Notes: generated by a model not told the origin, from the sequence alone. Shown: positions 2-51,293, counted from the stretch's first letter. The stretch: DNA of 64,000 nucleotides from Minisyncoccota bacterium (GCA_035546615.1 DASZWM010000006.1:1-64000), one strand, 5' to 3'. Made by a program: numbers and translations.

Positions 2-1054
2 ACGGGTTCAGCCTCCAGCACGTGGCAGAGTAGCGCTACCTACACCGACACCGGCCTCCAGACCAACAAATGCTACGGCTACAAGGTGCAGGCAAGGGAC
101 GGCCTCCTTAACTACGGCGCCACCACGACGGCTTCGACCACCTACTCGGGAGCTGCGACACCGGGGGCGCCTGTTGCTACTCCTTTGGCGACTAGCAGCA
201 CCTTTACCAACAACGCCAACGGCAACCCGTCTTCGAACCCCACTACCAACTTTGCGGCGCAGATCGTCGCCACCTCACCGACCGACTCTACCTGGCTCAA
301 CAAATATATCGATTCCTCCGGCAATCCGCAGTCTGCCAAGCAGTGGCTCTCGGATGCTCAGCTGGACAGCGTAACCATCCAAAGCCTCACGCCCGGCACC
401 ACCTACACCATCCAGGTTATGGCGCGCAATGAGTCTCTACAAGAGACCGCCTCCAGTACCCAGACCGTCTTCCTTACTGCTCCTGCCGCTCCCGGCACAC
501 CCACCTACTCCAACATTACCGACTCCTCCATGACTGTCTCGTGGAGCGCAGCAACGGGCGCCACCTCCTACAAGCTCGAGCGCTGCTCGGGCGGCGGGTG
601 CAGTGCAGTGCAAATAGCGAGCGGCATCGCAGGCACCTCGTACAACGATTCCGGCCTCACGGGCAATACCACCTACTACTACCGGGTGCGGGGGAGCAAC
701 GCAGGCGGTGATGGCGCGTACTCCGCTACATCGAGCCAGCTTACCTTGCCAAGCCAGTCTGCTCCTCCTACCTACACCAATGTCACAACGAATAGTCTGA
801 GAGTTAATTGGTCTGCTCCCTCCGGCGGAGCCGTCTCCTACAAAGTAGAGCGCTGCCAGGGCGACCAGTGCACCAACTTCTCTGAAATAGCCGCGGGAGT
901 TACCACGCTCTACTACGACGACTCGGGGCTCACCCCTAACGTCAACTACCGCTACCGCATCCGGGCTACCAATGCGACAGGGGATGGGGTGTACTCGGGG
1001 ATTACTAACACTCTCTTATATAACGCACCCGCAGGCAGTGTCCGCTTCCGCTGA
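2..1054 (+). CDS. Fibronectin type III-like repeat surface protein (5' partial, continues upstream of window)
   Basis: Open frame runs from nt 2. Tandem ~90-aa modules with FN3-like signatures (TYKLERCSGGGCS...YYYRVRGSNAGGDGAYS; SYKVERCQGDQCT...YRYRIRATNATGDGVYS). S/T/N-rich. Confidence 0.55.
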   Translation, partial: TGSASSTWQSSATYTDTGLQTNKCYGYKVQARDGLLNYGATTTASTTYSGAATPGAPVATPLATSSTFTNNANGNPSSNPTTNFAAQIVATSPTDSTWLNKYIDSSGNPQSAKQWLSDAQLDSVTIQSLTPGTTYTIQVMARNESLQETASSTQTVFLTAPAAPGTPTYSNITDSSMTVSWSAATGATSYKLERCSGGGCSAVQIASGIAGTSYNDSGLTGNTTYYYRVRGSNAGGDGAYSATSSQLTLPSQSAPPTYTNVTTNSLRVNWSAPSGGAVSYKVERCQGDQCTNFSEIAAGVTTLYYDDSGLTPNVNYRYRIRATNATGDGVYSGITNTLLYNAPAGSVRFR

Positions 1055-9111: not shown

Positions 9112-10491
9112 ATGACGGTCGGATTACGGGGGACGTTGGCGCTCTTTTTGCTTGCGGCAAGCGCGCTCATGTGCGCCGGCGCGGCGTACTCCCTGGCTGT
9201 TTCCGCGCCTTTGGCGCATGCCGACGAGCTGACGCCCGAGCAGAAGGCAAAGCTCCAGGCCGAATACGACCAGCTCCAGGTCGAGATAGCGCAGTGGCAG
9301 AAGGTGCTCGACGATACGCGCGCCAAAAAAGGGACGCTCCAGGGCGACGTGACGCTCTTGGACGCGCAGATAAAGAAGGCGGAGGCCGAAATAAAGCAGC
9401 GCACCGCCACCATCACCACGCTCGCAAGCGAGATACAGGAAAAGAACGCGCGCATCTCAAGCCTTGAGGACAGCATCGAGGCGGGCCATGAGTCGCTCGC
9501 GAAGCTCCTGCGGCAGAAAAATGACGCCGAGACGCGCTCGCTGGTCCTGCTCGCGTTCTCCTCGCAGAGCCTTTCGGATTTTTTCTCCGACGTCGACTCG
9601 ATAGACTCCATAGACCGGAACCTCCAGGACCAGTTCGCCGAGCTGCGCGATACCCGCAGCGAGACCGAGAAGGAGCGCGCCGCGCTGGATGCCAAAAAGA
9701 ATCAGGAGCTCGACGCCCAGCACGAGGTGCAGGCAAAAAAGACCGCCATTGCGAACGACCAGACGCAGAAGAAGGAGCTTTTGGCCGTTACCGCCACGCA
9801 GGAGAAGACCTACGCCCAGGTGCTTGCGGCAAACCAGGCGAAGGCCGCGGCGATACGCGCGGCCCTCTTCCCCCTGCGCGACGCGTCGGCGATACAGTTC
9901 GGCGACGCCCTTACGTACGCGCAGGCCGCACAGAAGAAGACCGGCGTCGACCCGGCGCTCGTGCTGGCTATCCTGACGCAAGAATCCAATCTCGGCACCA
10001 ATGTAGGGCAATGCTACCTGGTCAACGACGCGACGGGTGCCGGCAAGGGAAAGAACACCGGCACCCCGTTCGCCGCCACCATGAACCCGACGCGCGATGT
10101 GCCGCCTTTCCTCGCGCTTTCAAGGCAGCTCGGCTTCGACCCGCACGCCCAAGTGGTCTCGTGTCCCATCGCGAGCGCCGGCGGCTGGGGCGGCGCCATG
10201 GGTCCCGCGCAATTCATTCCGTCTACCTGGGCAGGGCTGGCGAGCCGCATCGCGGCCGCGCGGGGCGTCTCGGTCGCCAACCCCTGGGACCCGCAGGATG
10301 CTATTGCCGCTATGTCGATATTCCTCGGCGATTTGGGCGCGGGCGCGGGCGGCTACACAGCCGAGCGCACCGCCGCGGCGAAATATTACGCCGGAGGAGC
10401 ATGGGCGACCGCGGGGCAGACCTACGCGACGCAGGTTATGGCTAAGGTCGCGCAGATACAACAGAATATTGATTTCCTTACCAATAATTAG
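9112..10491 (+). CDS. Secreted/membrane-anchored coiled-coil protein with C-terminal lytic transglycosylase (SLT/lysozyme-like) domain
   Basis: Signal anchor; long heptad coiled coil; C-terminal ILTQESN ... GAMGPAQFIPSTW ... YYAGG (ES/GLMQ/AYNxG-like SLT motifs). Confidence 0.6.
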   Translation: MTVGLRGTLALFLLAASALMCAGAAYSLAVSAPLAHADELTPEQKAKLQAEYDQLQVEIAQWQKVLDDTRAKKGTLQGDVTLLDAQIKKAEAEIKQRTATITTLASEIQEKNARISSLEDSIEAGHESLAKLLRQKNDAETRSLVLLAFSSQSLSDFFSDVDSIDSIDRNLQDQFAELRDTRSETEKERAALDAKKNQELDAQHEVQAKKTAIANDQTQKKELLAVTATQEKTYAQVLAANQAKAAAIRAALFPLRDASAIQFGDALTYAQAAQKKTGVDPALVLAILTQESNLGTNVGQCYLVNDATGAGKGKNTGTPFAATMNPTRDVPPFLALSRQLGFDPHAQVVSCPIASAGGWGGAMGPAQFIPSTWAGLASRIAAARGVSVANPWDPQDAIAAMSIFLGDLGAGAGGYTAERTAAAKYYAGGAWATAGQTYATQVMAKVAQIQQNIDFLTNN

Positions 10492-13422: not shown

Positions 13423-13495
13423 GCCGGAGTAGCTCAGTTGGTAGAGCGCCGCTTTTGTAAAGCGAGGGTCGTCGGTTCAAGCCCGACCTCCGGCT
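13423..13495 (+). tRNA. tRNA-Thr (anticodon UGU), CCA not encoded
   Basis: Cloverleaf by hand: acceptor GCCGGAG/CTCCGGC, D arm GCTC-AGTTGGTA-GAGC, anticodon stem CCGCT/AGCGA with loop TTTGTAA (anticodon TGT), T arm GTCGG-TTCAAGC-CCGAC, discriminator T. Confidence 0.85.
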
Positions 13496-19679: not shown

Positions 19680-21737
19680 GTGGCTGAAAACAAGGACAAA
19701 ACCAAGGCAAAAAAATCCTCCTACGGCGCCGATTCCATCACCGTCCTCGAAGGGCTCGAGGCGGTCCGCCGCCGCCCGGGCATGTACATCGGCACCACCG
19801 GCCCGGAAGGCCTCCACCATCTCATCTGGGAAGTCTTCGACAACTCGCGCGACGAGGCCATGGGCGGCTTCGCCAATGATGTCGAGGTGGCGCTCCTGCC
19901 CGGCAACATCGTGCGCGTGGCGGATAACGGCCGCGGCATTCCGGTCGAGGTCCACAAGCAGACCAAGGTCTCGACCCTTGAGACCGTCATGACAATTCTC
20001 CATGCCGGCGGCAAGTTCGGCGGCGACGGCTACAAGGTGTCCGGCGGCCTCCACGGCGTGGGCGTTTCGGTAGTGAACGCGCTTTCCACCTGGCTGCGCG
20101 CCGAGGTCCACCGCGACGGCGGCGCATACGTGCAGGACTACGCCATCGGCAAGAAAAAGGCCGCGGTAAAGAAGGTAGGCCCCAGCAAGCTCACCGGCAC
20201 CGTCATTTCTTTCACTCCCGACGCGAGCATTTTCGAGAAGACCGATTTCGATTTCGACAAAATAGTGGCCCACCTGCGCGAGCAGGCATACCTCGTTAAG
20301 GGGATGCGCATCACGATAATCGACGCGCGCGAATCCGGCCTCAAGTTCACCGACGCCGGGAAAGAACTGTACCTGCGCGACTACCTCACGCAGAGCCCGT
20401 CGCAGACGTTCTACTTCGAAGGCGGCCTGCGCTCGCTCATCTCCTTCTACAACCGCTACCAAAAACCGGTCCACAAGAATATTTTCTACATCGAGAAAGA
20501 AGTCGATAACGTCGCGGTCGAGGTTGCGCTCCAGTACGCCGACGACATATCCTCGCGCGTCTTCGCCTTCGCCAACAACATCTTCAACAACGAGGGCGGC
20601 ACGCACGTGACCGGCTTCCGCACCGCGCTTACCCGCACGCTCAATACGTACGCGCGCAAGGGCAATTCGGCTAAAGACAGCGACGAGAACTTCACCGGCG
20701 ACGACGTGCTCGAGGGCCTGACCGCCGTGGTATCCATCAAGATGCGCGAGATACAGTTCGAGGGCCAGACCAAGGGCAAGCTCGGCTCCGTCGAGGCGCG
20801 CAGCGCCGTGGAGACCGTGTTCGGCGAGGCGTTCAGCCTTTTCCTCGAGGAGAATCCCGACGATGCGCGCGCGATAATCTCAAAATCCCTCCTCGCGCTC
20901 AAGGCCCGCAAGGCCGCGAAGGCCGCCAAGGACTCCGTCATGCGCAAGGGCGCGCTTGAGGGCATGTCGCTTCCGGGCAAGCTGGCCGACTGCCAGACCA
21001 AGGACGCTTCCGAATCGGAGCTCTTCGTTGTGGAGGGCGACTCGGCAGGCGGCTCGGCCAAGATGGGCCGCGACCGCCGCACGCAGGCAATACTCCCGCT
21101 GCGCGGGAAAATTCTCAACGTCGAGCGCGCGCGTTTGGACAAGATGATCGCCTCCGAGCAGATACGCAACCTCGTGGTGGCGCTCGGCACAGCAATCGGC
21201 GACGTGTTCGACATCTCGAAGCTCCGCTATCACAAGATAATTATCGCGACCGATGCCGACGTGGACGGCGCGCACATCCGCACGCTTCTCCTTACGCTCA
21301 TGTACCGCCATTTCCGCTCCATCGTGGACGGCGGCTACGTCTACATCGCACAGCCGCCGCTCTATAAGATAAAGCGCGGCAAGGAGGTCATGTACGCGTA
21401 TTCCGACGACGAGAAGGCGAAGCTCTTGGGCAAAGACGCCGCCAACGTGCAGGAAGACGGCGCCGAAGAAGGGGATGAGCCTGCGGAAGAAGCCGAAGAG
21501 GAAACAGCGAAGAAATCCGGCAAAATCCGCATCCAGCGCTACAAGGGTCTTGGCGAAATGAACCCGGAGGAGCTCTGGGAAACGACCATGAATCCGGCCA
21601 ACCGCATTCTCAAGCAGGTAACGGTGGAGGACGCGCAGGATGCCGACCACGTGTTCGACATCCTCATGGGCGAGGACGTTCCCTCCCGCAAGAGCTTCAT
21701 TCAAAGCAACGCGAAGCTCGCGAATCTCGACATCTAA
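19680..21737 (+). CDS. gyrB: DNA gyrase subunit B
   Basis: GHKL ATPase motifs (EVFDNSRDEA, GLHGVG), Toprim EGDSAGG, C-terminal QRYKGLGEMN; non-ATG (GTG) start likely. Confidence 0.93.
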   Translation: MAENKDKTKAKKSSYGADSITVLEGLEAVRRRPGMYIGTTGPEGLHHLIWEVFDNSRDEAMGGFANDVEVALLPGNIVRVADNGRGIPVEVHKQTKVSTLETVMTILHAGGKFGGDGYKVSGGLHGVGVSVVNALSTWLRAEVHRDGGAYVQDYAIGKKKAAVKKVGPSKLTGTVISFTPDASIFEKTDFDFDKIVAHLREQAYLVKGMRITIIDARESGLKFTDAGKELYLRDYLTQSPSQTFYFEGGLRSLISFYNRYQKPVHKNIFYIEKEVDNVAVEVALQYADDISSRVFAFANNIFNNEGGTHVTGFRTALTRTLNTYARKGNSAKDSDENFTGDDVLEGLTAVVSIKMREIQFEGQTKGKLGSVEARSAVETVFGEAFSLFLEENPDDARAIISKSLLALKARKAAKAAKDSVMRKGALEGMSLPGKLADCQTKDASESELFVVEGDSAGGSAKMGRDRRTQAILPLRGKILNVERARLDKMIASEQIRNLVVALGTAIGDVFDISKLRYHKIIIATDADVDGAHIRTLLLTLMYRHFRSIVDGGYVYIAQPPLYKIKRGKEVMYAYSDDEKAKLLGKDAANVQEDGAEEGDEPAEEAEEETAKKSGKIRIQRYKGLGEMNPEELWETTMNPANRILKQVTVEDAQDADHVFDILMGEDVPSRKSFIQSNAKLANLDI

Positions 21738-21913: not shown

Positions 21914-22225
21914 TCAGGCCGCGACGGGCGTCCGGCGCTTCTCGATTTCGGGCTTCCAAGCCGCCGTGAGCTCGGCGTACTCGTCATCGACCGGAGTACC
22001 GTCGATTCCCTTGGCCTGAGCTTCGCTGAAAAAGCCGTTGGAAATCGGGGCTTTCTTCAGATCGGCGGGTGCCCCGTTGTAGCTGCCGACGAGCTGTCCT
22101 AGGACGCAAGACTGGTCGTACTGAATGTCGAGTTCGCCGGTGTCGATATGACCGGCCCACCCGGGCATCAATTGGTCGAGCAAGGTAGCGCCTGCGGCTG
22201 CGCGTGCTGCTGAAACATGAAACAT
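21914..22225 (-). CDS. Hypothetical protein
   Basis: Start moved to Met preceded by GGAGGG RBS. Confidence 0.35.
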   Translation of the reverse strand: MFHVSAARAAAGATLLDQLMPGWAGHIDTGELDIQYDQSCVLGQLVGSYNGAPADLKKAPISNGFFSEAQAKGIDGTPVDDEYAELTAAWKPEIEKRRTPVAA

Positions 22226-22386
22226 TGAAGAACCCTCCAATCCATTGTTGCGGGATTCGGAGATGGTCACGATACTAGTGTGACTCCCCAAGATAACAAT
22301 ACTCCTCACCCGATTTTTATCAAACTAGAGTATAAGCAAAAACTCCGGCGCTTGGCCGGAGTTTTTGCTACCTTATTATTTAAGAT

Positions 22387-23553
22387 TTAGTTCGTGCGGA
22401 CCGAGACAGTGTTATTGCCCTCGTTGAGCTCGCGGACCCAGTTGCGCGGGTCGGCGGTGATAGTGAGCGTGCCGCCGCGGGAATCATAGCGGTCATCGTT
22501 GCGATCGTAGTCGTCGCAGTACTCGTCATACCAGTCCTCCCACTCGTCGGTGTCCCAGTCGTCGCGGCTGTGGCTCGAGGTGTCCCAGGCATCCTGGTAC
22601 CAGTCCATCCAATCCTCCTCGTCCCAGCTGTTGTGGCTCTCGTCGCACTCGTCGTAGCGCTCGTCATCGGAGCGGCTGTCGCGCGAGCGGTAGCCCTCGT
22701 CGAAGGTCAGGGTGTAGACGATGCGGTCGCCCGGGTAGAGCGCCTGCTGCGCGGGGGAGCTGTAGGCGTAGCCGCCGTCAACCGGAATGTCCGCGGAAAG
22801 GTTCCAGCCGGCCGGCACGGTATTGGAGCCGACGTTCGCTATCTCGAACTGCGCCGCGGTGCTGCCGTAGCGCGAGGAAAGGGAATTGACCGAAAGGATG
22901 CGGACAGAAAGGTCCGGGTAGCCGTACAGCGCGGTCGCGCGCGGCGCGGCATAGTAGGTGGCGCCGGCGTAGCTGGCACCGGTCGAGGCGGGAGCCGTGA
23001 CAGGAGCCGCCGCGGCAACCGCGGGATTAACGGTCACGTCGGCCGATGCGCTTGCGGTGATGGCTCCGTCGCTGAGGCGCGTCGCAAGCACGGTTATGGT
23101 CGTATTAGCCGCCTGCTTAGCCGTGTTCTTCGCGGTAAGCGTCATGTTGGAGGTCGCGCCCGTGTAATTGAAGGACGAGCCGCATGCGACGGTCTGCGAT
23201 TTGCCCGCCGGGGTAGGGGCCTGAATGGAGAGGCCGCTTGCGCACGAGAAGGAGAGCGCGTAGCTATACTCGCCGTCCTTGTTCGAGTGGTTCCAGGAAA
23301 CGCTGAACGACTGTCCGGAGGCGACAGCGGAGCTCGGCACGGTAAGAGTCATCTCTTCGGTGCCGTTATCGTTCGTGTCGTGCGCGGTGCCGGTCATGAG
23401 CGAGGTAAGGCTTGAGCCCACGCCGCCGACGATGGAGGAAAGGTTAAACGCGAGCAGGATAATGCCCCAAGCGCCCAAAAGCAGCACAAGAATAACCCCG
23501 AGGAGGGCTACGACGCGCAGAAAGGTGTCCCGGAAAGTCTTTTTTTCGTGCAT
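22387..23553 (-). CDS. Cell-surface protein with CARDB-like domains and an Asp/Trp/Glu-rich low-complexity insert
   Basis: N-terminal signal anchor; S/T/A-rich linker; FEIANVGSNTV... and C-terminal ...RELNEGNNTVSV (CARDB E-x-NE-x-NN hallmark); ~70-aa D/W/E/Y-rich segment. Confidence 0.55.
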   Translation of the reverse strand: MHEKKTFRDTFLRVVALLGVILVLLLGAWGIILLAFNLSSIVGGVGSSLTSLMTGTAHDTNDNGTEEMTLTVPSSAVASGQSFSVSWNHSNKDGEYSYALSFSCASGLSIQAPTPAGKSQTVACGSSFNYTGATSNMTLTAKNTAKQAANTTITVLATRLSDGAITASASADVTVNPAVAAAAPVTAPASTGASYAGATYYAAPRATALYGYPDLSVRILSVNSLSSRYGSTAAQFEIANVGSNTVPAGWNLSADIPVDGGYAYSSPAQQALYPGDRIVYTLTFDEGYRSRDSRSDDERYDECDESHNSWDEEDWMDWYQDAWDTSSHSRDDWDTDEWEDWYDEYCDDYDRNDDRYDSRGGTLTITADPRNWVRELNEGNNTVSVRTN

Positions 23554-23609
23554 ACGGTGCTGAAAGCGGATAAATGTTTACGAGCGCATCGTATCATGGG
23601 CATTTTAGC

Positions 23610-23654
23610 GTGTCAAGCCCTGTACTTGACAAAATGTCAATTCTGGTATAAGAT
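23610..23654 (+). promoter_or_regulatory. Sigma70-like promoter TTGACA-17-TAAGAT with overlapping operator-like palindrome TTGACAAAATGTCAA (and upstream TGTCAA)
   Basis: Sequence read directly; lies in the divergent intergenic region between the CARDB protein gene and the sortase gene. Confidence 0.45.
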
Positions 23655-23720
23655 AGTAATAGTCCTTTAAAACAGGCCATACAGTGCCTGACCGGCAAGC
23701 GGCCGGGAGGGCTACAACGT

Positions 23721-24344
23721 ATGACCCAGACTCACGGCAAAAAGCAGAGTGCAGCGGCGAAGACGGGGGCATTCCTGCTCACCTTCGTTATGCTCTTTGC
23801 TATTACGTACGGCTTCCTCGCGGTTGTCGACGTGTTGCCTGAGGACGGTCAAAAGGACGCGGCACCTTCCCATATCGCAGCGCAGGACGCAGGCGCTATA
23901 GAGGCTCCGGTTCGCGTGAAGGCTCTTGATGTCGGGCTTGATGCCAATGTCACGAACCCGAACACGACCGACCTCGACGCTTTGGACGCGGCGCTTGAAA
24001 ACGGCGCAGTGCGCTATCCGACCTCGGCGATGCTTGGCCAGGAGGGTACGGTGCTCCTTTTCGGGCACTCGTCCTACCTGCCGGTCGTGTACCACCAGTA
24101 CTACAAGACCTTCAATAAGGTGCAGAACCTTACGAAAGGCCAGGTAATAAGCGTCTATTCCGGCACCATGGAATACCGCTATGCGGTCACGAATGTCCGG
24201 GTTGCCGATGCGACCGAGGATGTGGTAGAACTTGCATCAAACGGCAAGCACCTTGTCTTGGTCACTTGCGACTCGTTCAAGTCCAAATCCAGCCGCTTCG
24301 TGGTTACAGCGGACTTTGTAGGGACGTATTCTCTCGCCAACTAA
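23721..24344 (+). CDS. Sortase-family transpeptidase
   Basis: N-terminal TM anchor; LLFGHSS (His) and LVLVTCDSF (TLxTC catalytic Cys) motifs; 207 aa. Confidence 0.65.
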   Translation: MTQTHGKKQSAAAKTGAFLLTFVMLFAITYGFLAVVDVLPEDGQKDAAPSHIAAQDAGAIEAPVRVKALDVGLDANVTNPNTTDLDALDAALENGAVRYPTSAMLGQEGTVLLFGHSSYLPVVYHQYYKTFNKVQNLTKGQVISVYSGTMEYRYAVTNVRVADATEDVVELASNGKHLVLVTCDSFKSKSSRFVVTADFVGTYSLAN

Positions 24345-24480
24345 CGTTGACGGGCGGATACCTCCTCGCAATGCGAGGAAAATTCACCAAGCGCTCGCCG
24401 AAAGGCTTGAAGCGAGGAGGGAATTGGAAAATGCACATTGATAGCCCTGAAAGGGGCAGAAACCAAGAGAAGGTTCAGAG

Positions 24481-24873
24481 ATGAACGACCACGGTAAAAA
24501 GGGGGTTCTGAAGCAAGTCATTGCTGAGGACCTCGGTGGCAAGACTCAGAAGTGGTGGCAAGGCAAGCTGCATGTTTACATGCGGCAAACCGAGCTTGCC
24601 CGGGAAGATCTTACAACGGTCAAAACCGAACTCGCAGCTGCTGTCGCCAAGGGCGAATCGGCCAAGAGCCAGGTTGCAGCCCTGGAAGAGCGCGTTACTC
24701 GCCTCGAAACCGAACTGGCTGAAGCCGGACGGAAAGAGAGCGAGTTCCGCGCGCAGATCGCTGAACTGGAAACGGAACAGTGGGAACCTGGTGATGTTGA
24801 AGATATCTTCAACATGATGACGGGTCCCTGGGAGACTGCCATCGCCAGCATGGAAAAGGAGCACGGGCTTTGA
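24481..24873 (+). CDS. Coiled-coil protein
   Basis: Heptad-rich ELA/ELE repeats; overlaps next ORF by 4 nt. Confidence 0.45.
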   Translation: MNDHGKKGVLKQVIAEDLGGKTQKWWQGKLHVYMRQTELAREDLTTVKTELAAAVAKGESAKSQVAALEERVTRLETELAEAGRKESEFRAQIAELETEQWEPGDVEDIFNMMTGPWETAIASMEKEHGL

Positions 24874-25757
24874 AAGATTCGTATCACAAGGCATTCGCGA
24901 CCCTGATCCTGTTCGGCGGGGTTCTGATTATCGGTGCCTGCCTTTACTGGGCTGGGGGAGTGGGCCGCGGTGGCCAGCTGACTCAGGACCAGGTCAATGC
25001 GCAAATCGCAGCCAAGGTTCCGACCAAGGAAGCGATCGTTGCAGGCATCGTCGCTGATCCGAACTTCACTACCGCCGCAAAAGCGGCAGTGAAGCCGGAA
25101 CTCGACACAAAGGCCAACATCGTCGACGTCATGTTCAAGAATGACTTCGAGGGCCTGGTCAAGCCGATCAACGACCGCCTCGCGGCGAACGAAACCGCTG
25201 TAGCGTCGAAGGTCGAGCAATCGGCCTTCGACGAAGAGTTCAAGCCTCTGAACGACAAGATTGCCGCGCTTGAGCCGAGGGTGAAAACCCTCGAAGATGC
25301 GCAGCAGGAAGCTCCGGCGCCTACGGCCGAAGCCGCTCCGCGTTCCAATCCGGATACGGCGGACGCAGTAACTTCACCGGTCGCCGGCAACCCGCCGGCG
25401 ACCAGCGATGACAGCTACGCGTCGTCGCACTACATCTCGATGAATGGCTACCGGCCGTGGACGAACTCGACGGCTTCCGAGCCTACAGAGAAGCCCAGCC
25501 GCGACGCCGCCTGGATGGATCGTATCGTGGCCAAGTGCCACATCGACCCGCCCGATCTGGAGACCGGAAAGTCCGAGATGAACATGGAGATGATCCATAA
25601 GACTCCGGACGACGTTCTCCAGAAGCTCTACGACGGGTGCCTAACCGAGGAGCAATACCAAGCCTCGTTGGACATCCCGACCGAAACCACAGAGATTTCA
25701 GTCTCATCAATACCTGAACCTACACCCGAAGAGATGAGTATCCTCGAAGGCTTCTAG
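24870..25757 (+). CDS. Membrane-anchored coiled-coil protein
   Basis: N-terminal TM, central coiled coil, acidic C-terminus; translationally coupled to the upstream ORF. Confidence 0.45.
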   Translation: MKDSYHKAFATLILFGGVLIIGACLYWAGGVGRGGQLTQDQVNAQIAAKVPTKEAIVAGIVADPNFTTAAKAAVKPELDTKANIVDVMFKNDFEGLVKPINDRLAANETAVASKVEQSAFDEEFKPLNDKIAALEPRVKTLEDAQQEAPAPTAEAAPRSNPDTADAVTSPVAGNPPATSDDSYASSHYISMNGYRPWTNSTASEPTEKPSRDAAWMDRIVAKCHIDPPDLETGKSEMNMEMIHKTPDDVLQKLYDGCLTEEQYQASLDIPTETTEISVSSIPEPTPEEMSILEGF

Positions 25758-25796
25758 CCAAGGTTCTCGTCTCCTCGATAATTGGAGTGAAGGAAG

Positions 25797-26069
25797 ATGA
25801 ATCGGAAGATAATCGGACTATTCTTTCTCGCTGCGATGACCGCCTCGGCCACAGCCGGCCAGAGCGTTCCTCCGCCAACCGGGCAAGAGCTCGAGGTGTT
25901 CCGGAACCGCGCTCAGCTGGTTCTCGGACACCACCTCGACGACTACTACTTCATGGGGCATAACGCGGGGCCGCCGCCGCGTCCCGGCTGCGTTCTCGAC
26001 AAGCGGGTGAAGGATCCGCATGTTCCGAACCTCTACCATGCGGGCTGGCGTTGCCCGAAACAGCACTGA
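25797..26069 (+). CDS. Small secreted hypothetical protein
   Basis: Signal peptide; followed by a 31-nt perfect palindrome. Confidence 0.35.
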   Translation: MNRKIIGLFFLAAMTASATAGQSVPPPTGQELEVFRNRAQLVLGHHLDDYYFMGHNAGPPPRPGCVLDKRVKDPHVPNLYHAGWRCPKQH

Positions 26070-26091
26070 CGTTCTTCGTTACTCTTTGTGC

Positions 26092-26122
26092 GCAGAGCGA
26101 TCGATATGATCGATCGCTCTGC
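26092..26122. promoter_or_regulatory. 31-nt perfect palindrome GCAGAGCGATCGAT-atg-ATCGATCGCTCTGC
   Basis: Read directly; between small secreted ORF and the repeat-protein gene; not followed by a clean T-run. Confidence 0.4.
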
Positions 26123-26232
26123 CACAAAATTTTTTCGCTATTTTCTGATTACAAATCTCTGTACGAGGTTTGTAGCCAGACTCTCGCGAAGGGAGTCGAG
26201 ATTATTACTAGTTTGATTTAGAAGAAAGTATT

Positions 26233-27531
26233 ATGAACAGCAATATTATAAACATAGGTCGTAAGATAAGCGTTGCTCTTATAGCGCTTATAGTTCTCGT
26301 GTTGCCTTTCGCTTCGGTGCAGGCAGCTGACTACTCTGACTATGATTATGTCGGGACCTCGTATTATGGTTCTGACTCTTCTAGCGATTACGTCGGGACT
26401 TCCTATTATGATTCCGGTTCTTCAAATAGTGGGAGCGATTACGTAGGAACGTCTTACTATACTCCTGATACTTCCAATGACTATGATTACGTTGGAACTT
26501 CGTACTATGAAGATAACTCTTCTGACTATGATTATGTCGGAACCTCCTATTATGGCTCTGGCTGCACCACGAACTGTGGCGGCGGTGGAGGTGGCGGCGG
26601 GGGCGGCGGATGCCGTTCTAACTGCACCCCTCCTCCTCCGAAGCCGGCCCCGGTTTGCGACCTCTCGGTCAGCCCTTCGCGCGTAGATTACGGCGATTCC
26701 GTAACTATCTCCTGGACCACGTCCAACGCCATCAGCGCCTTCCTCGCCGGTTTCGGCACGGTGTCCACTAACGGCTCCCGCACCAGCGGCGCTATCTATG
26801 GCACCAAGACCTACACTCTTACCGCGACCGCAAGCGGCGGCCGCACGGTAACCTGCTCCAAGACCGTTACAGTCGAGCGCGAGCATGAGCACACGCCCGA
26901 TCTCGAGTGCAAGCTTAAGGCTTCCGACACGAGCATCGAGCGCGGAGACTCGGTCCGCATCACCTGGTCTAGCGACGGCGCTGACTACGGCTACATCACT
27001 CCGGATATCGGTGATGTCGATGAAAGCGGTTCCGACACGGTAGAACCTCGCTCTGATACGACTTACAAGGGTACCTTCTACAACGACGACGGCGACAAGG
27101 TTACCTGCTCGGTCAAGGTAAACGTTGACCGCGAGTACAATCCGCCGGTCTACGAGAATCCGACTCCGTACATTAACCTCTCCGCTGTTCCGTACACCGG
27201 CCTTGACCTCGGTCCTGTCGGTACGGTTCTCTACTGGGCGTTCCTCATCGCATGGTGCCTCGTTGCCGCATACCTTATCGCGGTCAAGCGCGTCCACATG
27301 AGCGTGTACCGCTGGTACAAGAAGGCGCTCTTCGGCGAGGAGGTGCACTTCGCGCCGGCGCAGGAAGTCTCCTTCGCAGGGTTCTCCCACGCTGATGTCG
27401 CAAAGCTCGCAGAGATGCTTCGCGGCGCAGTCGCTCCCTCGCACGCTTCGGCACCTGTTGCTGCAGCTCCCGCAGGCGATGCGATAGACCCGTTCATCCT
27501 CTCGCAGATCCATCGCACTCCGCGCTCCTAA
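26233..27531 (+). CDS. Surface repeat protein: 5x DYVGTSYY repeats, poly-Gly/Cys spacer, two Ig-like C...C domains, TM, cytoplasmic tail
   Basis: Signal peptide; repeats D-Y-(D-Y)-V-G-T-S-Y-Y separated by S/D-rich spacers; CGGGGGGGGGGGGC; PPPPKP; two ~70-aa Cys-bounded beta-rich modules; VLYWAFLIAWCLVAAYLIAV TM. 5' third is AT-rich. Confidence 0.5.
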   Translation: MNSNIINIGRKISVALIALIVLVLPFASVQAADYSDYDYVGTSYYGSDSSSDYVGTSYYDSGSSNSGSDYVGTSYYTPDTSNDYDYVGTSYYEDNSSDYDYVGTSYYGSGCTTNCGGGGGGGGGGGCRSNCTPPPPKPAPVCDLSVSPSRVDYGDSVTISWTTSNAISAFLAGFGTVSTNGSRTSGAIYGTKTYTLTATASGGRTVTCSKTVTVEREHEHTPDLECKLKASDTSIERGDSVRITWSSDGADYGYITPDIGDVDESGSDTVEPRSDTTYKGTFYNDDGDKVTCSVKVNVDREYNPPVYENPTPYINLSAVPYTGLDLGPVGTVLYWAFLIAWCLVAAYLIAVKRVHMSVYRWYKKALFGEEVHFAPAQEVSFAGFSHADVAKLAEMLRGAVAPSHASAPVAAAPAGDAIDPFILSQIHRTPRS

Positions 27532-27625: not shown

Positions 27626-27652
27626 TATTCTGGACTTCGTAAGTCCAGAATA
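27626..27652. repeat. Palindromic element copy TATTCTGGACTTCGTAAGTCCAGAATA (opposite centre orientation), abutting thrS stop codon
   Basis: 27-nt palindrome; centre CGT instead of ACG; intergenic between convergent genes. Confidence 0.9.
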
Positions 27653-28900
27653 TTATTTGCGCTCGGCTATCTCTTCCTTCAGTTTTGAAACTATTTCGGC
27701 AATGGGGAGTGCTCCAAGTTTGCCTTCGCGGCCCTCAAGGCTTGCGGTGTTGGCTGCAACTTCCGCGTCGCCGATCACAAGCGTGTAGGGGATTTTCTGC
27801 GTCTTTGCCTCGCGTATCTTCTTGCCTAGGCTCTCATTGCTTTCGTCGATGTCCGCGCGGATGCCAGCCCTCTTGAGCTCCTGCGCGACCTTTGCGGCAA
27901 ATTCTTTGTGCGGCTCGGCAATAGGAATGACGCGAGCCTGAAGGGGAGAAAGCCAGGTGGGAAGCGTGCCGTCGTAGTGCTCAAGCAGTACCGCGATGCA
28001 GCGCTCGAGGCTGCCGGCTATAGCCGCGTGCACCATCACGATGCGCTCCTTCTCGCCCTTTTCATTGATGCAGGTAAGGTCGAAGCGCTCGGGGATGTTC
28101 ATGTCGAGCTGGATGGTCGCGACCTGCCACTCGCGCCCGGCGGAATTCTTTGCCATGAAATCGAGCTTGGGCCCGTAGAGCGCCGCCTCGCCCGGGCCTT
28201 CAAACGTGTCGGCCCCGCGTTCCTCGGCAAGGCTGCGCAACTCGCTCTCGGCCTTGTCCCATATCTCCGGGGTACCTAGATATTTCTCGGGAGTCGCCGG
28301 GTCGCGGAAGGAAAGCCGTATACGCAATGTGAAGCCGAATGTCTTGTAGAAGGTGTCAACGATATCCCAGATCTTTAGGAATTCCTCGCGCACCTGACTA
28401 GTGCGGCAGAATACGTGTGCGTCGTCCTGAGCAAAACCCAAAACGCGAGTGAGGCCGCCAAGCTCTCCGGACTGCTCGTCGCGGTAGACCATGGTGGTCT
28501 CGGCGTAGCGCTGCGGCATCTCGCGGTACGAGAACGGCCGCCGCGCGAATATCTGCGTGTGGTGCGGGCAATTCATCGGCTTCATCGCGTACTCGCGGCC
28601 CTCGCGCGACGTTATCTTGAAGAGGTCATCGGCGAACTTTTCCCAGTGGCCGCTTGTCTCATAGAGGTCTTTCTTGGTGATGTGGGGGATGGTGACGCGC
28701 TCGTAGCCTCGCGCTTCGCGCATCTCCCAAATAAAGCGGTCGAGCTCCTGGCGCAGAATAGTGCCGCGCGGGGTCCACAGCGGCAGGCCCGAGCCGACGA
28801 GGTCGGAGAAGGTGAAGAGGTCGAGCTCCTGGCCAATTTTGCGGTGGTCGCGTTCTTCCATAGATAGTTCCAAGAGTATCAAGTGTGGGGATTTTTGCAA
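27653..28900 (-). CDS. thrS: Threonyl-tRNA synthetase, catalytic + anticodon-binding domains only (no N-terminal TGS/editing domains)
   Basis: PMNCPHH, RVLGFAQDDAHVFC class II motifs; 415 aa versus ~640 aa canonical. Confidence 0.88.
   Translation of the reverse strand: MQKSPHLILLELSMEERDHRKIGQELDLFTFSDLVGSGLPLWTPRGTILRQELDRFIWEMREARGYERVTIPHITKKDLYETSGHWEKFADDLFKITSREGREYAMKPMNCPHHTQIFARRPFSYREMPQRYAETTMVYRDEQSGELGGLTRVLGFAQDDAHVFCRTSQVREEFLKIWDIVDTFYKTFGFTLRIRLSFRDPATPEKYLGTPEIWDKAESELRSLAEERGADTFEGPGEAALYGPKLDFMAKNSAGREWQVATIQLDMNIPERFDLTCINEKGEKERIVMVHAAIAGSLERCIAVLLEHYDGTLPTWLSPLQARVIPIAEPHKEFAAKVAQELKRAGIRADIDESNESLGKKIREAKTQKIPYTLVIGDAEVAANTASLEGREGKLGALPIAEIVSKLKEEIAERK

Positions 28901-44315: not shown

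Positions 44316-51293
<6,978 letters not shown>

What the first reader, a model, noticed from the sequence alone, without database searches (positions are those of the whole stretch)
22387..27531. Accessory cell-surface island: sortase plus CARDB adhesin-like protein, coiled-coil proteins and a DYVGTSYY-repeat protein
Between gyrB and thrS, housekeeping synteny is interrupted by ~5.5 kb encoding only secreted or membrane proteins and a sortase-family transpeptidase. None of the neighbouring surface proteins has a canonical C-terminal LPXTG. One carries VPYTG followed by a TM and basic residues, but then continues for ~80 aa. The sortase substrate is therefore unclear and may use a non-canonical signal.
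Basis: partly seen in the sequence, partly recalled or inferred. Interest (0 to 1): 0.55.

Follow-up and report, generated by a model that had tools for sequence, protein, structure and literature searches.

The report
Core sortase with dedicated PYTG-signal substrate
This is not an accessory island but a gene cluster conserved across Parcubacteria (Paceibacteria), in which a divergent sortase always sits beside one surface protein carrying an undescribed, unusually long "VPYTG" sorting signal with a conserved cytoplasmic tail.

Summary
The 207-aa protein is a true sortase: it passes the Pfam threshold, keeps an invariant His116/Cys183/Arg192, and its AF2 model matches only sortases. It reaches no NCBIfam class A-F/GN cut-off.

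The order gyrB, CARDB-like protein, sortase, variable genes, VPYTG protein, thrS, dnaE recurs in about 70 Paceibacteria species. All 55 loci with enough upstream DNA carry the sortase next to the VPYTG protein. GC content is ordinary, and no flanking repeats or adjacent tRNA were found.

The VPYTG region is the most conserved part of the 432-aa protein. In 156/156 relatives the pattern L-S-x-V-P-Y-T-G-L-[DE]-L-G-P keeps L and P-Y-T-G invariant. A conserved transmembrane helix, K[RK], a juxtamembrane helix ending LFG, a variable linker and a terminal DxFIxSQIxR follow. The module always ends the protein and is found only at this locus. Same-locus paralogues have shorter tails, one of classical length.

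Best explanation (confidence 0.65): a dedicated one-enzyme, one-locus sortase system whose signal is a new extended LPXTG variant. Cleavage, the acceptor and the tail's function are inferred, not shown. No Pfam or NCBIfam model and no paper I found describes it.

The parts
22387..23553 (-). 388-aa conserved partner protein. It has an N-terminal TM anchor (conserved GLIAxLLLGAWGIIQLAF), an Ig-like domain with 2 conserved Cys, and a CARDB-like domain interrupted by a variable acidic/aromatic low-complexity insert.
   Evidence: ORF. CARDB match is sub-threshold. Homologues found in 53 loci by iterated HMM and in the same position and orientation in 50 loci by tblastn. Conservation map shows no invariant Lys.
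23588..23654 (.). Divergent promoter-like sites in the 167-bp intergenic region. The - strand site (23616-23588) faces the 388-aa gene and the + strand site (23626-23654) faces the sortase.
   Evidence: Both match 10/12 hexamer positions with a 17-nt spacer. This is a consensus match only.
23721..24344 (+). Sortase, 207 aa. N-terminal TM helix at aa 12-35, then the catalytic beta-barrel with His116 (nt 24066-24068), Cys183 (24267-24269) and Arg192 (24294-24296).
   Evidence: Pfam PF04203 at 68.5 bits. No NCBIfam class cut-off reached. Triad invariant in 42 homologues. AF2 pLDDT 84.7. The 50 listed Foldseek PDB hits are all sortases, of classes A, C, D, E and F. Best PDB sequence hits are 2kw8, 5go6, 5hu4 and 4d70.
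24481..24873 (+). 130-aa coiled-coil protein with no TM or signal peptide. Fast-evolving. Its stop overlaps the next gene's start by 4 nt.
   Evidence: Only weak coiled-coil Pfam hits. No TM. No sequence homologue in the other loci. Positional analogues in L001, L003 and L005.
24870..25757 (+). 295-aa single-pass membrane protein with an extracellular coiled-coil/low-complexity region. Occupies a variable slot.
   Evidence: TM at aa ~6. Homologues in only 3 loci. Many relatives appear to encode one protein with a ~100-130-aa N-terminal part, a TM and an ectodomain at this position.
25797..26069 (+). 90-aa small secreted protein. Occupies a variable slot.
   Evidence: ORF with an N-terminal hydrophobic leader. 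Homologues in 2 loci only.
26233..27531 (+). 432-aa putative sortase substrate. It comprises a signal peptide (aa 1-31), Tyr-rich DYVGTSYY repeats (nt 26344-26553), a Cys/Gly/Pro linker, two Ig-like domains (nt 26653-26877 and 26905-27129), a stalk and the sorting module.
   Evidence: ORF. AF2 gives two beta-sandwiches with pLDDT >90 and a disordered repeat region. Foldseek finds only generic tandem Ig/Fn3 folds. Orthologues occupy the same position in ~70 loci.
27175..27216 (+). Sorting motif L-S-A-V-P-Y-T-G-L-D-L-G-P (aa 315-328). VPYTG is at nt 27187-27201. The predicted scissile bond is Thr322|Gly323.
   Evidence: L(-4) and P-Y-T-G are invariant in 156/156 proteins, followed by L 151, D/E 155, L 146, G 151 and P 120 of 156. 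This is the most conserved segment of the protein, with mean top-residue frequency 0.92. It lies in an unstructured linker just before the TM helix in the AF2 model.
27217..27285 (+). Conserved transmembrane helix (aa 329-351) with the pattern YWxFLxxWCxxAAYLI.
   Evidence: Invariant Y and W, and near-invariant W, C, A, Y and L. Mean top-residue frequency 0.80. Part of AF2 helix 328-367.
27286..27531 (+). Cytoplasmic extension (aa 352-432). It comprises KR, a juxtamembrane helix ending LFG, a variable linker and the conserved terminal helix DPFILSQIHR.
   Evidence: Top-residue frequencies are 0.66 (juxtamembrane), 0.26 (linker) and 0.75 (C-terminal). The tail after G is 47-139 aa, median 90, in 156 proteins. 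No Pfam, NCBIfam or PDB match.
22335..22369 (.). GC-rich hairpin downstream of the 388-aa gene, terminator-like.
   Evidence: 15-bp stem. Consensus scan only.
27626..27652 (.). Hairpin between the convergent 432-aa gene and thrS, terminator-like.
   Evidence: 12-bp stem. Consensus scan only.

Best explanation
The region is a core, vertically inherited cell-envelope cluster of Paceibacteria (Parcubacteria, CPR). It is built around a dedicated sortase and its neighbouring substrate.

Proposed mechanism:
1. The 432-aa protein is exported through its signal peptide.
2. It is held in the membrane by its C-terminal TM helix and the KR stop-transfer residues.
3. This presents the invariant L-S-x-V-P-Y-T-G-L-[DE]-L-G-P segment just outside the membrane.
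4. The membrane-anchored sortase, using Cys183, His116 and Arg192, cleaves between Thr322 and Gly323.
5. The sortase transfers the Ig-like ectodomain to an amine acceptor, most likely a peptidoglycan precursor.
6. A ~109-aa TM-plus-cytoplasmic fragment is left behind. Its conservation suggests a function of its own.

The 388-aa CARDB-like membrane protein is a third conserved component of unknown role. The genes between the sortase and the substrate are a fast-evolving variable slot.

Shown: sortase identity, motif invariance, topology prediction, strict co-localisation and restriction to one locus per genome. Inferred: cleavage, the scissile bond, the acceptor and any tail function.
For: Sortase identity:
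- Pfam 68.5 bits against a cut-off of 26.6.
- Invariant H116, C183 and R192 in 42 homologues.
- AF2 pLDDT 84.7 with an N-terminal TM helix, and the 50 listed Foldseek PDB hits are all sortases.

Co-localisation:
- The profile-derived scan of 185,579 species genomes found 71 module loci in about 70 genomes. All lie at the same syntenic site.
- 55/55 loci with enough upstream DNA carry the sortase 0.8-4 kb away. The other 16 are cut by contig ends.
- The same holds on independent metagenome contigs.

Signal-like properties of the module:
- It always lies at the extreme C-terminus of 95-680-aa proteins. There are 730 clusters at E<=1e-3.
- P-Y-T-G is invariant in 156/156.
- The motif is unstructured and sits immediately before the TM helix.
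- An N-terminal signal peptide is present.
- The ectodomains vary while the module is constant.
- Same-locus paralogues carry shorter tails. One of these is classically tripartite and ends ...ALKRGFSPRA, 38 aa after the G.

Precedent and context:
- Adjacency of enzyme and single target is the accepted signature of dedicated sorting systems (PMC3237569; bioRxiv 10.1101/2023.06.07.544157).
- An SLT lytic transglycosylase in the window suggests peptidoglycan is present.
Against: - There are no experimental data on cleavage.
- The TM helix and cytoplasmic tail are as conserved as, or more conserved than, the ectodomain. That is atypical for a discarded signal and fits a permanent membrane anchor.
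- In distant relatives (L074, L076) about 230 cytoplasmic residues follow the TM.
- The module is not recognised by the LPXTG anchor model or any other NCBIfam sorting-signal model.
- The genome scan used narrow peptide patterns ([AQ]VPYTGL[DE]L and AAYLI[AV][VI]K[RK]). Divergent substrates elsewhere in these genomes cannot be excluded.
- Only 64 kb of this genome was available.
- The nature of the cell wall and of the acceptor in these organisms is unknown.
Confidence: 0.65

Rival explanations
1. The VPYTG module is a permanent type-I membrane anchor with a functional cytoplasmic tail and is never cleaved. The resemblance to LPXTG is convergent or vestigial, and the sortase acts on other, unidentified substrates.
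For: The TM helix, juxtamembrane helix and C-terminal DxFIxSQIxR are strongly conserved. Tails reach ~277 aa in L074 and L076. No LPXTG-anchor HMM match.
Against: P-Y-T-G is invariant in 156/156, at exactly the position and spacing of a sortase motif. The sortase is adjacent in 55/55 loci. Paralogues with a tail as short as 38 aa keep the motif. No other candidate substrate is present in 64 kb. No second module locus was found in near-complete single-contig genomes.
Confidence: 0.2
2. It is a pilus- or fibre-assembly system. The sortase polymerises PYTG proteins, and in some genomes 2-3 paralogues, head-to-tail like a class C sortase.
For: The ectodomain consists of tandem Ig-like domains. Several loci carry 2-3 PYTG paralogues. 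The gene-cluster organisation resembles pilus islands.
Against: No invariant Lys or pilin-like motif occurs in the ectodomain alignment or in the 388-aa partner. There is only one sortase per locus. Class C NCBIfam score is 25.5 against a cut-off of 160. The AF2 secondary-structure map lists no helix between the TM helix (12-35) and the first strand where a class C lid would lie, although that stretch is low-confidence. Most genomes have a single PYTG protein.
Confidence: 0.08
3. It is an accessory, horizontally acquired cell-surface island inserted between housekeeping genes.
For: All flanking genes are housekeeping. The ectodomain repeats and middle genes evolve fast.
Against: The same cluster sits at the same site in every relative examined, about 70 species. 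GC is 0.53-0.60 against about 0.59 for the window. The only tRNA is 9 kb away. There are no flanking direct repeats.
Confidence: 0.02

Closest known systems
Class D and class E sortases (e.g. Bacillus anthracis 2kw8, Clostridium perfringens SrtD 4d70, Streptomyces SrtE 5go5/5go6)
   Same: Same fold, the same His-Cys-Arg triad, the same TC active-site context (LVTCDS here) and an N-terminal membrane anchor. They are the best sequence and structure matches in the PDB.
   Different: Only 16-30% identity. NCBIfam class D scores 32.5 against 165 and class E 33.2 against 160, so it is not a member of either. The inferred motif is VPYTG rather than LPNTA or LAXTG (these motifs are from my own knowledge and PMC5148588).
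Classical LPXTG cell-wall sorting signal (TIGR01167)
   Same: A pentapeptide with Pro, Thr and Gly in the same positions, then a TM helix, then basic residues. The protein also has an N-terminal signal peptide.
   Different: Position 4 is V, A, T, L, I or M, and position 2 is an invariant Tyr. Conservation extends to the P' side (G-L-[DE]-L-G-P). The TM helix has a conserved sequence. Another 40-130 residues follow the basic residues, ending in a conserved motif. No HMM match.
Dedicated sortase/single-target systems, e.g. the Gram-negative 'marine' class GN sortase TIGR03784 with its adjacent vWFA target (PMC3237569)
   Same: One enzyme and one, or very few, targets are encoded side by side. 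The target is the only signal-bearing protein found in the genome.
   Different: The enzyme scores 29.8 against 158 for TIGR03784. The lineage is different (CPR) and the target family is different. Here the system is core and syntenic rather than sporadic, and the signal has a long tail.
C-peptide signalling after sortase A cleavage in Streptococcus gordonii (as summarised in PMC11502775)
   Same: The TM fragment left in the membrane after cleavage has a function of its own.
   Different: In that case the C-peptide is a short classical signal sensed by a histidine kinase. Here the retained fragment would be ~109 aa with a conserved cytoplasmic end. No partner is known, and the analogy is hypothetical.

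Membership tests
Sortase superfamily (Pfam PF04203) | HMM score above the gathering threshold | tested here: met
   68.5 bits against 26.6.
Sortase superfamily (Pfam PF04203) | Catalytic His, Cys (T-C context) and Arg | tested here: met
   H116, C183 (LVTCDS) and R192 are invariant in 42 homologues. They align with the catalytic residues of 2kw8.
Sortase superfamily (Pfam PF04203) | Closed beta-barrel sortase fold with an N-terminal membrane anchor | tested here: met
   AF2 pLDDT 84.7 with helix 12-35 and a beta-barrel. The 50 listed Foldseek PDB hits are all sortases.
Sortase superfamily (Pfam PF04203) | Transpeptidase activity on a sorting motif | not testable with these tools
   Needs an enzyme assay.
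Sortase classes A-F and GN (NCBIfam subfamily models) | Score above the class-specific cut-off | tested here: not met
   Scores against cut-offs: class C 25.5/160, class D 32.5/165, class E 33.2/160, class F 22.2/166, class GN 29.8/158, generic TIGR01076 33.8/39.35. No class A or class B model was listed at E<=1.
LPXTG-type cell-wall sorting signal | LPXTG-like pentapeptide | tested here: met
   VPYTG. P, T and G are invariant in 156/156 and position 4 is hydrophobic or small.
LPXTG-type cell-wall sorting signal | Hydrophobic TM segment after the motif, followed by basic residues | tested here: met
   TM at aa 329-351, then KR at 352-353.
LPXTG-type cell-wall sorting signal | The signal ends the protein, with a short charged tail at the extreme C-terminus | tested here: not met
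   79 residues follow KR. The median is 90 aa after the G across 156 proteins. Some same-locus paralogues have much shorter tails; one ends 38 aa after the G in classical tripartite form.
LPXTG-type cell-wall sorting signal | Recognised by TIGR01167 or another sorting-signal HMM | tested here: not met
   No such hit at E<=1 for the whole protein, nor at E<=5 for 12 isolated modules.
LPXTG-type cell-wall sorting signal | N-terminal signal peptide on the same protein | tested here: met
   MNSNIINIGRKISVALIALIVLVLPFASVQA|AD. Orthologues are alike. AF2 helix 8-26.
Dedicated sorting system (enzyme plus single adjacent target, sensu Haft) | Enzyme and target are encoded by neighbouring genes across lineages | tested here: met
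   55/55 informative loci, plus L001, L003, L005 and L078.
Dedicated sorting system (enzyme plus single adjacent target, sensu Haft) | Targets are restricted to one locus per genome | tested here: met
   71 loci in about 70 genomes, all at the gyrB...thrS site. This includes single-contig genomes of 0.5-0.64 Mb. Caveat: the search patterns were narrow.
Genomic (accessory) island | Variable presence among relatives | tested here: not met
   Present at the same site in all relatives examined.
Genomic (accessory) island | Compositional deviation, flanking repeats, or a tRNA or integrase at the border | tested here: not met
   GC 0.53-0.60. The only tRNA is at 13423. No flanking direct repeats. 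No recombinase-family hit for the seven ORFs between 21914 and 27531 scanned against Pfam.

The most novel reading that the evidence does not exclude
The PYTG module is a dual-purpose element. Sortase cleavage would split a bitopic precursor into two products. One is a wall-anchored Ig-like surface protein. The other is a conserved ~109-aa TM-plus-cytoplasmic fragment (juxtamembrane LFG helix and terminal DxFIxSQIxR) that acts on its own inside the cell, for example by reporting or positioning envelope assembly through a cytoplasmic partner. In deeper Parcubacteria the retained fragment has grown into a ~230-aa cytoplasmic domain. That would make this a sortase-driven transmembrane processing system rather than a simple anchoring signal, in organisms whose envelope biology is essentially unknown.
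Probability: 0.25. Interest if true: 0.7.

Novelty: new variant of a known kind. Interest (0 to 1): 0.5.

Why it matters
CPR/Patescibacteria make up a large share of bacterial diversity, and how they build their envelope and attach to hosts is largely unknown. Sortases were already known to be enriched in CPR (PMC6744442), but I found no description of their substrates or signals in Parcubacteria.

This analysis gives a concrete, testable enzyme-substrate pair and a precise recognition motif, LSxVPYTGL[DE]LGP. It also provides an HMM-ready definition of a C-terminal domain that is now annotated only as 'hypothetical protein'. The system is core and syntenic, so it probably serves a basic envelope function rather than a strain-specific one.

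The invariant Tyr at P2, the conserved P' side and the long conserved cytoplasmic tail would extend what counts as a sortase signal. A sortase with a new specificity could also be useful for protein ligation.

Tried and rejected
- The word-indexed protein search with the isolated 124-aa module returned only 11 short fragments and missed the known orthologues. I replaced it with an exhaustive profile search and a genome pattern scan.
- Iterated HMM searches for the 130-aa, 295-aa, 90-aa and 131-aa proteins across 70+ loci found almost no homologues. These are variable slots, not conserved components.
- Pfam, NCBIfam and PDB searches of the module and of the long tails of L074 and L076 found no known domain.
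- A literature search for 'PYTG' with sortase returned one irrelevant paper. Searches for sortase with Parcubacteria, Patescibacteria or CPR gave only general statements.
- I looked for an invariant Lys as a pilin-type nucleophile in the substrate ectodomain and in the 388-aa partner. None was found, so the pilus reading is down-weighted.
- I looked for island hallmarks: GC shift, tRNA and flanking repeats. None were found.
- Foldseek on the substrate model gave only generic tandem Ig/Fn3 matches with no specific functional lead.

Full report
**1. What is in the sequence**

The window comes from a Candidatus Paceibacterota (Parcubacteria, CPR) MAG. The sortase and the 432-aa protein have 100%-identical entries in NCBI under that name, on a 208-kb contig.

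Seven ORFs lie between gyrB (19680-21737, +) and thrS (27653-28900, -):
- an unconserved 131-aa ORF (21914-22309, -);
- a 388-aa protein (22387-23553, -);
- a 207-aa protein (23721-24344, +);
- a 130-aa protein (24481-24873, +);
- a 295-aa protein (24870-25757, +);
- a 90-aa protein (25797-26069, +);
- a 432-aa protein (26233-27531, +).

- The 207-aa protein matches Pfam Sortase at 68.5 bits against a cut-off of 26.6.
- The 388-aa protein has a sub-threshold CARDB match on its last strand.
- The 432-aa protein carries five DYVGTSYY repeats.
- It has VPYTG at aa 319-323, followed by a hydrophobic helix, KR, and 79 further residues.

One descriptive point is wrong. The 130-aa coiled-coil protein has no membrane or secretion signal.

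**2. The sortase is real but belongs to no described class**

- His116, Cys183 (in LVTCDS) and Arg192 are invariant in an alignment of 42 homologues.
- The AlphaFold2 model (pLDDT 84.7) shows an N-terminal TM helix (aa 12-35), a linker and a beta-barrel.
- The 50 listed Foldseek matches in the PDB are all sortases, of classes A, C, D, E and F, with no clear preference.
- By sequence the nearest solved structures are 2kw8 (B. anthracis), 5go6/5go5 (class E), 5hu4 and 4d70.
- NCBIfam class models score 22-33 bits against cut-offs of 158-166 for classes C, D, E, F and GN. No class A or B model was listed at all, and even the generic TIGR01076 model falls short at 33.8 against 39.35.
- The family is large. 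More than 1,100 proteins match at E<=1e-3. Of the 120 listed, those that carry an organism name come from Paceibacterota, Adlerbacteria or a Parcubacteria-group MAG.
- That sortases are common in CPR is already published (PMC6744442).

**3. It is not an accessory island**

Contigs encoding sortase homologues of 78%, 67%, 59% and 54% identity all show the same order: pheS, pheT, (x), gyrB, ~400-aa protein (-), sortase, 1-3 small genes, 420-500-aa protein, thrS (-), (x), dnaE (-).

A scan of one genome per species (185,579 species) with patterns derived from the C-terminal module returned 71 loci in about 70 genomes. I ran tblastn with the window's proteins against these loci:
- The sortase was found in 55 loci, the 388-aa homologue in 50, gyrB in 49, thrS in 65 and dnaE in 57.
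- The order and orientation are almost always the same.
- In four loci the module protein precedes the sortase.
- The 16 loci without a sortase are all truncated by a contig end within about 5 kb upstream of the module.

Other island hallmarks are absent. GC content across the cluster (0.53-0.60) is unremarkable for the window. The only tRNA is 9 kb away. There are no flanking direct repeats.

**4. The VPYTG region is a conserved C-terminal module**

Orthologues differ greatly in their N-terminal repeats. Examples are DYVGTSYY here, YESTYTPS in L001 and Gly/Cys/Ser-rich stretches elsewhere. They also differ in the number of Ig-like domains.

The C-terminus is nearly constant. Mean top-residue frequency by segment:

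| Segment | Top-residue frequency |
|---|---|
| Motif | 0.92 |
| TM helix | 0.80 |
| Juxtamembrane helix | 0.66 |
| Linker | 0.26 |
| Last 13 residues | 0.75 |
| Ig-like domains | 0.56-0.61 |
| Repeats | 0.31 |

An exhaustive profile search of 1.84 billion representative proteins gave these results:
- 730 clusters at E<=1e-3, and 236 at E<=1e-10.
- In every one of the 150 listed hits the match runs to the protein's C-terminus. Protein lengths range from 95 to 680 aa.

In 156 of these proteins:
- The residue four positions before Pro is always Leu, and P-Y-T-G is invariant.
- The next residues are L (151), D/E (155), L (146), G (151) and P (120).
- The helix contains an invariant Y followed by a near-invariant W (154/156).
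- The sequence after the Gly is 47-139 aa long, median 90.

The AF2 model of the 432-aa protein has the following parts:
- a signal-peptide helix;
- a disordered repeat region;
- two confident beta-sandwiches (aa 141-215 and 225-299);
- an unstructured stalk containing VPYTG;
- a long helix at aa 328-367 (TM plus juxtamembrane);
- two short cytoplasmic helices.

Foldseek finds only generic tandem Ig/Fn3 folds.

**5. Why I think this module is the sortase's recognition signal**

- The motif has Pro, Thr and Gly in the LPXTG positions. It sits in a flexible segment 5-8 residues outside a TM helix that is followed by K[RK].
- The protein has an N-terminal signal peptide.
- The module is a C-terminal suffix on variable ectodomains.
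- It occurs only next to this sortase, in 55/55 informative loci, and at only one locus per genome. This includes genomes assembled as single 0.5-0.64-Mb contigs.
- Several loci contain a second or third PYTG paralogue with a short tail. Most end just after the juxtamembrane LFG. One (L033 375-1142) ends ...ALKRGFSPRA, 38 aa after the Gly, which is a classical tripartite signal.
- Conserved adjacency of a sorting enzyme with a single target is the accepted in-silico signature of a dedicated sorting system (PMC3237569; bioRxiv 10.1101/2023.06.07.544157).

The mechanism in 'best explanation' follows from established sortase chemistry: an acyl-enzyme intermediate at the Cys, cleavage between Thr and Gly, and resolution by an amine nucleophile. 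It is inferred, not shown. An SLT-domain lytic transglycosylase in the window is weak evidence that peptidoglycan is available as the acceptor.

**6. What does not fit a simple signal**

- A discarded signal is not expected to have a sequence-conserved TM helix, a conserved juxtamembrane helix and a conserved C-terminal motif (DxFIxSQIxR) 60-80 residues into the cytoplasm.
- In two deeper Parcubacteria (L074, L076) about 230 cytoplasmic residues with their own conserved helical region follow the TM. The sortase is still adjacent in L074. In L076 the contig ends too close upstream to tell.
- No Pfam, NCBIfam or PDB entry matches the module or these tails.

Two readings remain:
- The retained fragment has its own function after cleavage. 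There is a loose precedent in the C-peptide signalling of S. gordonii adhesins, summarised in PMC11502775.
- The protein is a permanent bitopic membrane protein and is not cleaved. This is the main rival, at 0.2.

I rank the pilus-type polymerisation reading low, for three reasons:
- Neither the ectodomain nor the 388-aa partner has an invariant Lys.
- The enzyme is far from the class C model.
- The AF2 secondary-structure map shows no helix where a class C lid would lie, although that stretch is low-confidence.

**7. Other components**

- The 388-aa protein is the third conserved member, found in 53 loci by iterated HMM. Its N-terminal TM helix is very conserved. It also has an Ig-like domain with two Cys and a CARDB-like domain split by a variable low-complexity insert. 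Its role is unknown.
- It is transcribed divergently from the sortase. The 167-bp spacer contains two back-to-back promoter-like sites, each matching 10/12.
- The genes between the sortase and the substrate (130, 295 and 90 aa here) have almost no detectable homologues across loci.
- Positionally, most loci encode at least one single-pass membrane protein there. Often it seems to carry a ~100-130-aa N-terminal cytoplasmic part. That suggests the 130-aa and 295-aa genes of the window, which overlap by 4 nt, may be a split version of one gene. This is tentative, because those ORF starts were taken mechanically.

**8. Comparison with known systems, and novelty**

The system works like a sortase/LPXTG system, and like the dedicated Gram-negative class GN sortase with its adjacent target. 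By the tests run it is a member of neither that class nor any other described class. The signal fails two defining features of the classical LPXTG anchor: extreme C-terminal position and HMM recognition.

All substrate homologues that carry a family-level annotation in public records are called 'hypothetical protein', apart from one weak Ig-domain match to an FHA domain-containing protein. I found no paper describing a PYTG signal. I therefore classify this as a new variant of a known kind: an ordinary enzyme family, but an undescribed signal architecture and an unusually core, syntenic, dedicated arrangement.

Interest is moderate (0.5). It offers a directly testable handle on CPR envelope biology, but cleavage is unproven and the general presence of sortases in CPR is known.

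Noticed in passing
window 44316-51293 (+): rpoB and rpoC are fused into one uninterrupted 2325-aa ORF. Rpb2 domain 7 ends at aa 1088 and Rpb1 domain 1 starts at aa 1107. One literature query for rpoBC fusion in CPR surfaced nothing relevant among the titles listed. Conservation in relatives was not checked.
   Followed up: partly
window 21914-22309 (-): The 131-aa ORF between gyrB and the 388-aa gene has no Pfam or NCBIfam match and no homologue in 70+ related loci. L005 has an unrelated 107-aa ORF in the same slot. This is the only piece of the region that looks variable between relatives, apart from the middle genes.
   Followed up: partly
window 26233-26298: The public NCBI protein for the 432-aa gene is 410 aa (P0279, 95% coverage). 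It was therefore called from a start about 22 codons downstream, which removes the signal peptide. Orthologues conserve the longer N-terminus MNxxIxNI....
   Followed up: partly
window 24870-24873; loci L008, L022, L038, L061, L069, L071: The 130-aa coiled-coil gene and the 295-aa TM gene overlap by 4 nt. In many relatives a single ORF at this position has a ~100-130-aa N-terminal part, a TM and an ectodomain. This suggests a gene split or fusion. ORF starts were not curated.
   Followed up: partly
L074 8810-10879; L076 257-2302: PYTG proteins of deeper Parcubacteria have about 277 aa after the Gly. These comprise a TM and a ~230-aa cytoplasmic region with conserved TIDD[LI]VKGL and a helical domain ending TA[GA]K[ML]AVTRA. 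There is no Pfam match.
   Followed up: partly
window 27653-28900 (-); L078 12143-13879: ThrRS here and in close relatives is a short form (402-415 aa, with only the catalytic and anticodon-binding domains). The relative in L078 has a 578-aa form with the tRNA_SAD domain. Editing-domain loss seems clade-specific.
   Followed up: no
loci L009, L011, L013, L014, L021, L024 and others: Many MAGs titled 'uncultured Candidatus Saccharibacteria bacterium' carry the Paceibacteria-type gyrB-sortase-PYTG-thrS-dnaE synteny with high gyrB and dnaE identity to the window. Their taxonomic labels may be wrong.
   Followed up: no
window 86-1054 (+) and 9112-10491 (+): There is a protein with fibronectin type III domains at the window start and an SLT-domain lytic transglycosylase. 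Neither ORF was flagged by the six-frame scan for a sortase-type motif followed by a hydrophobic stretch.
   Followed up: no
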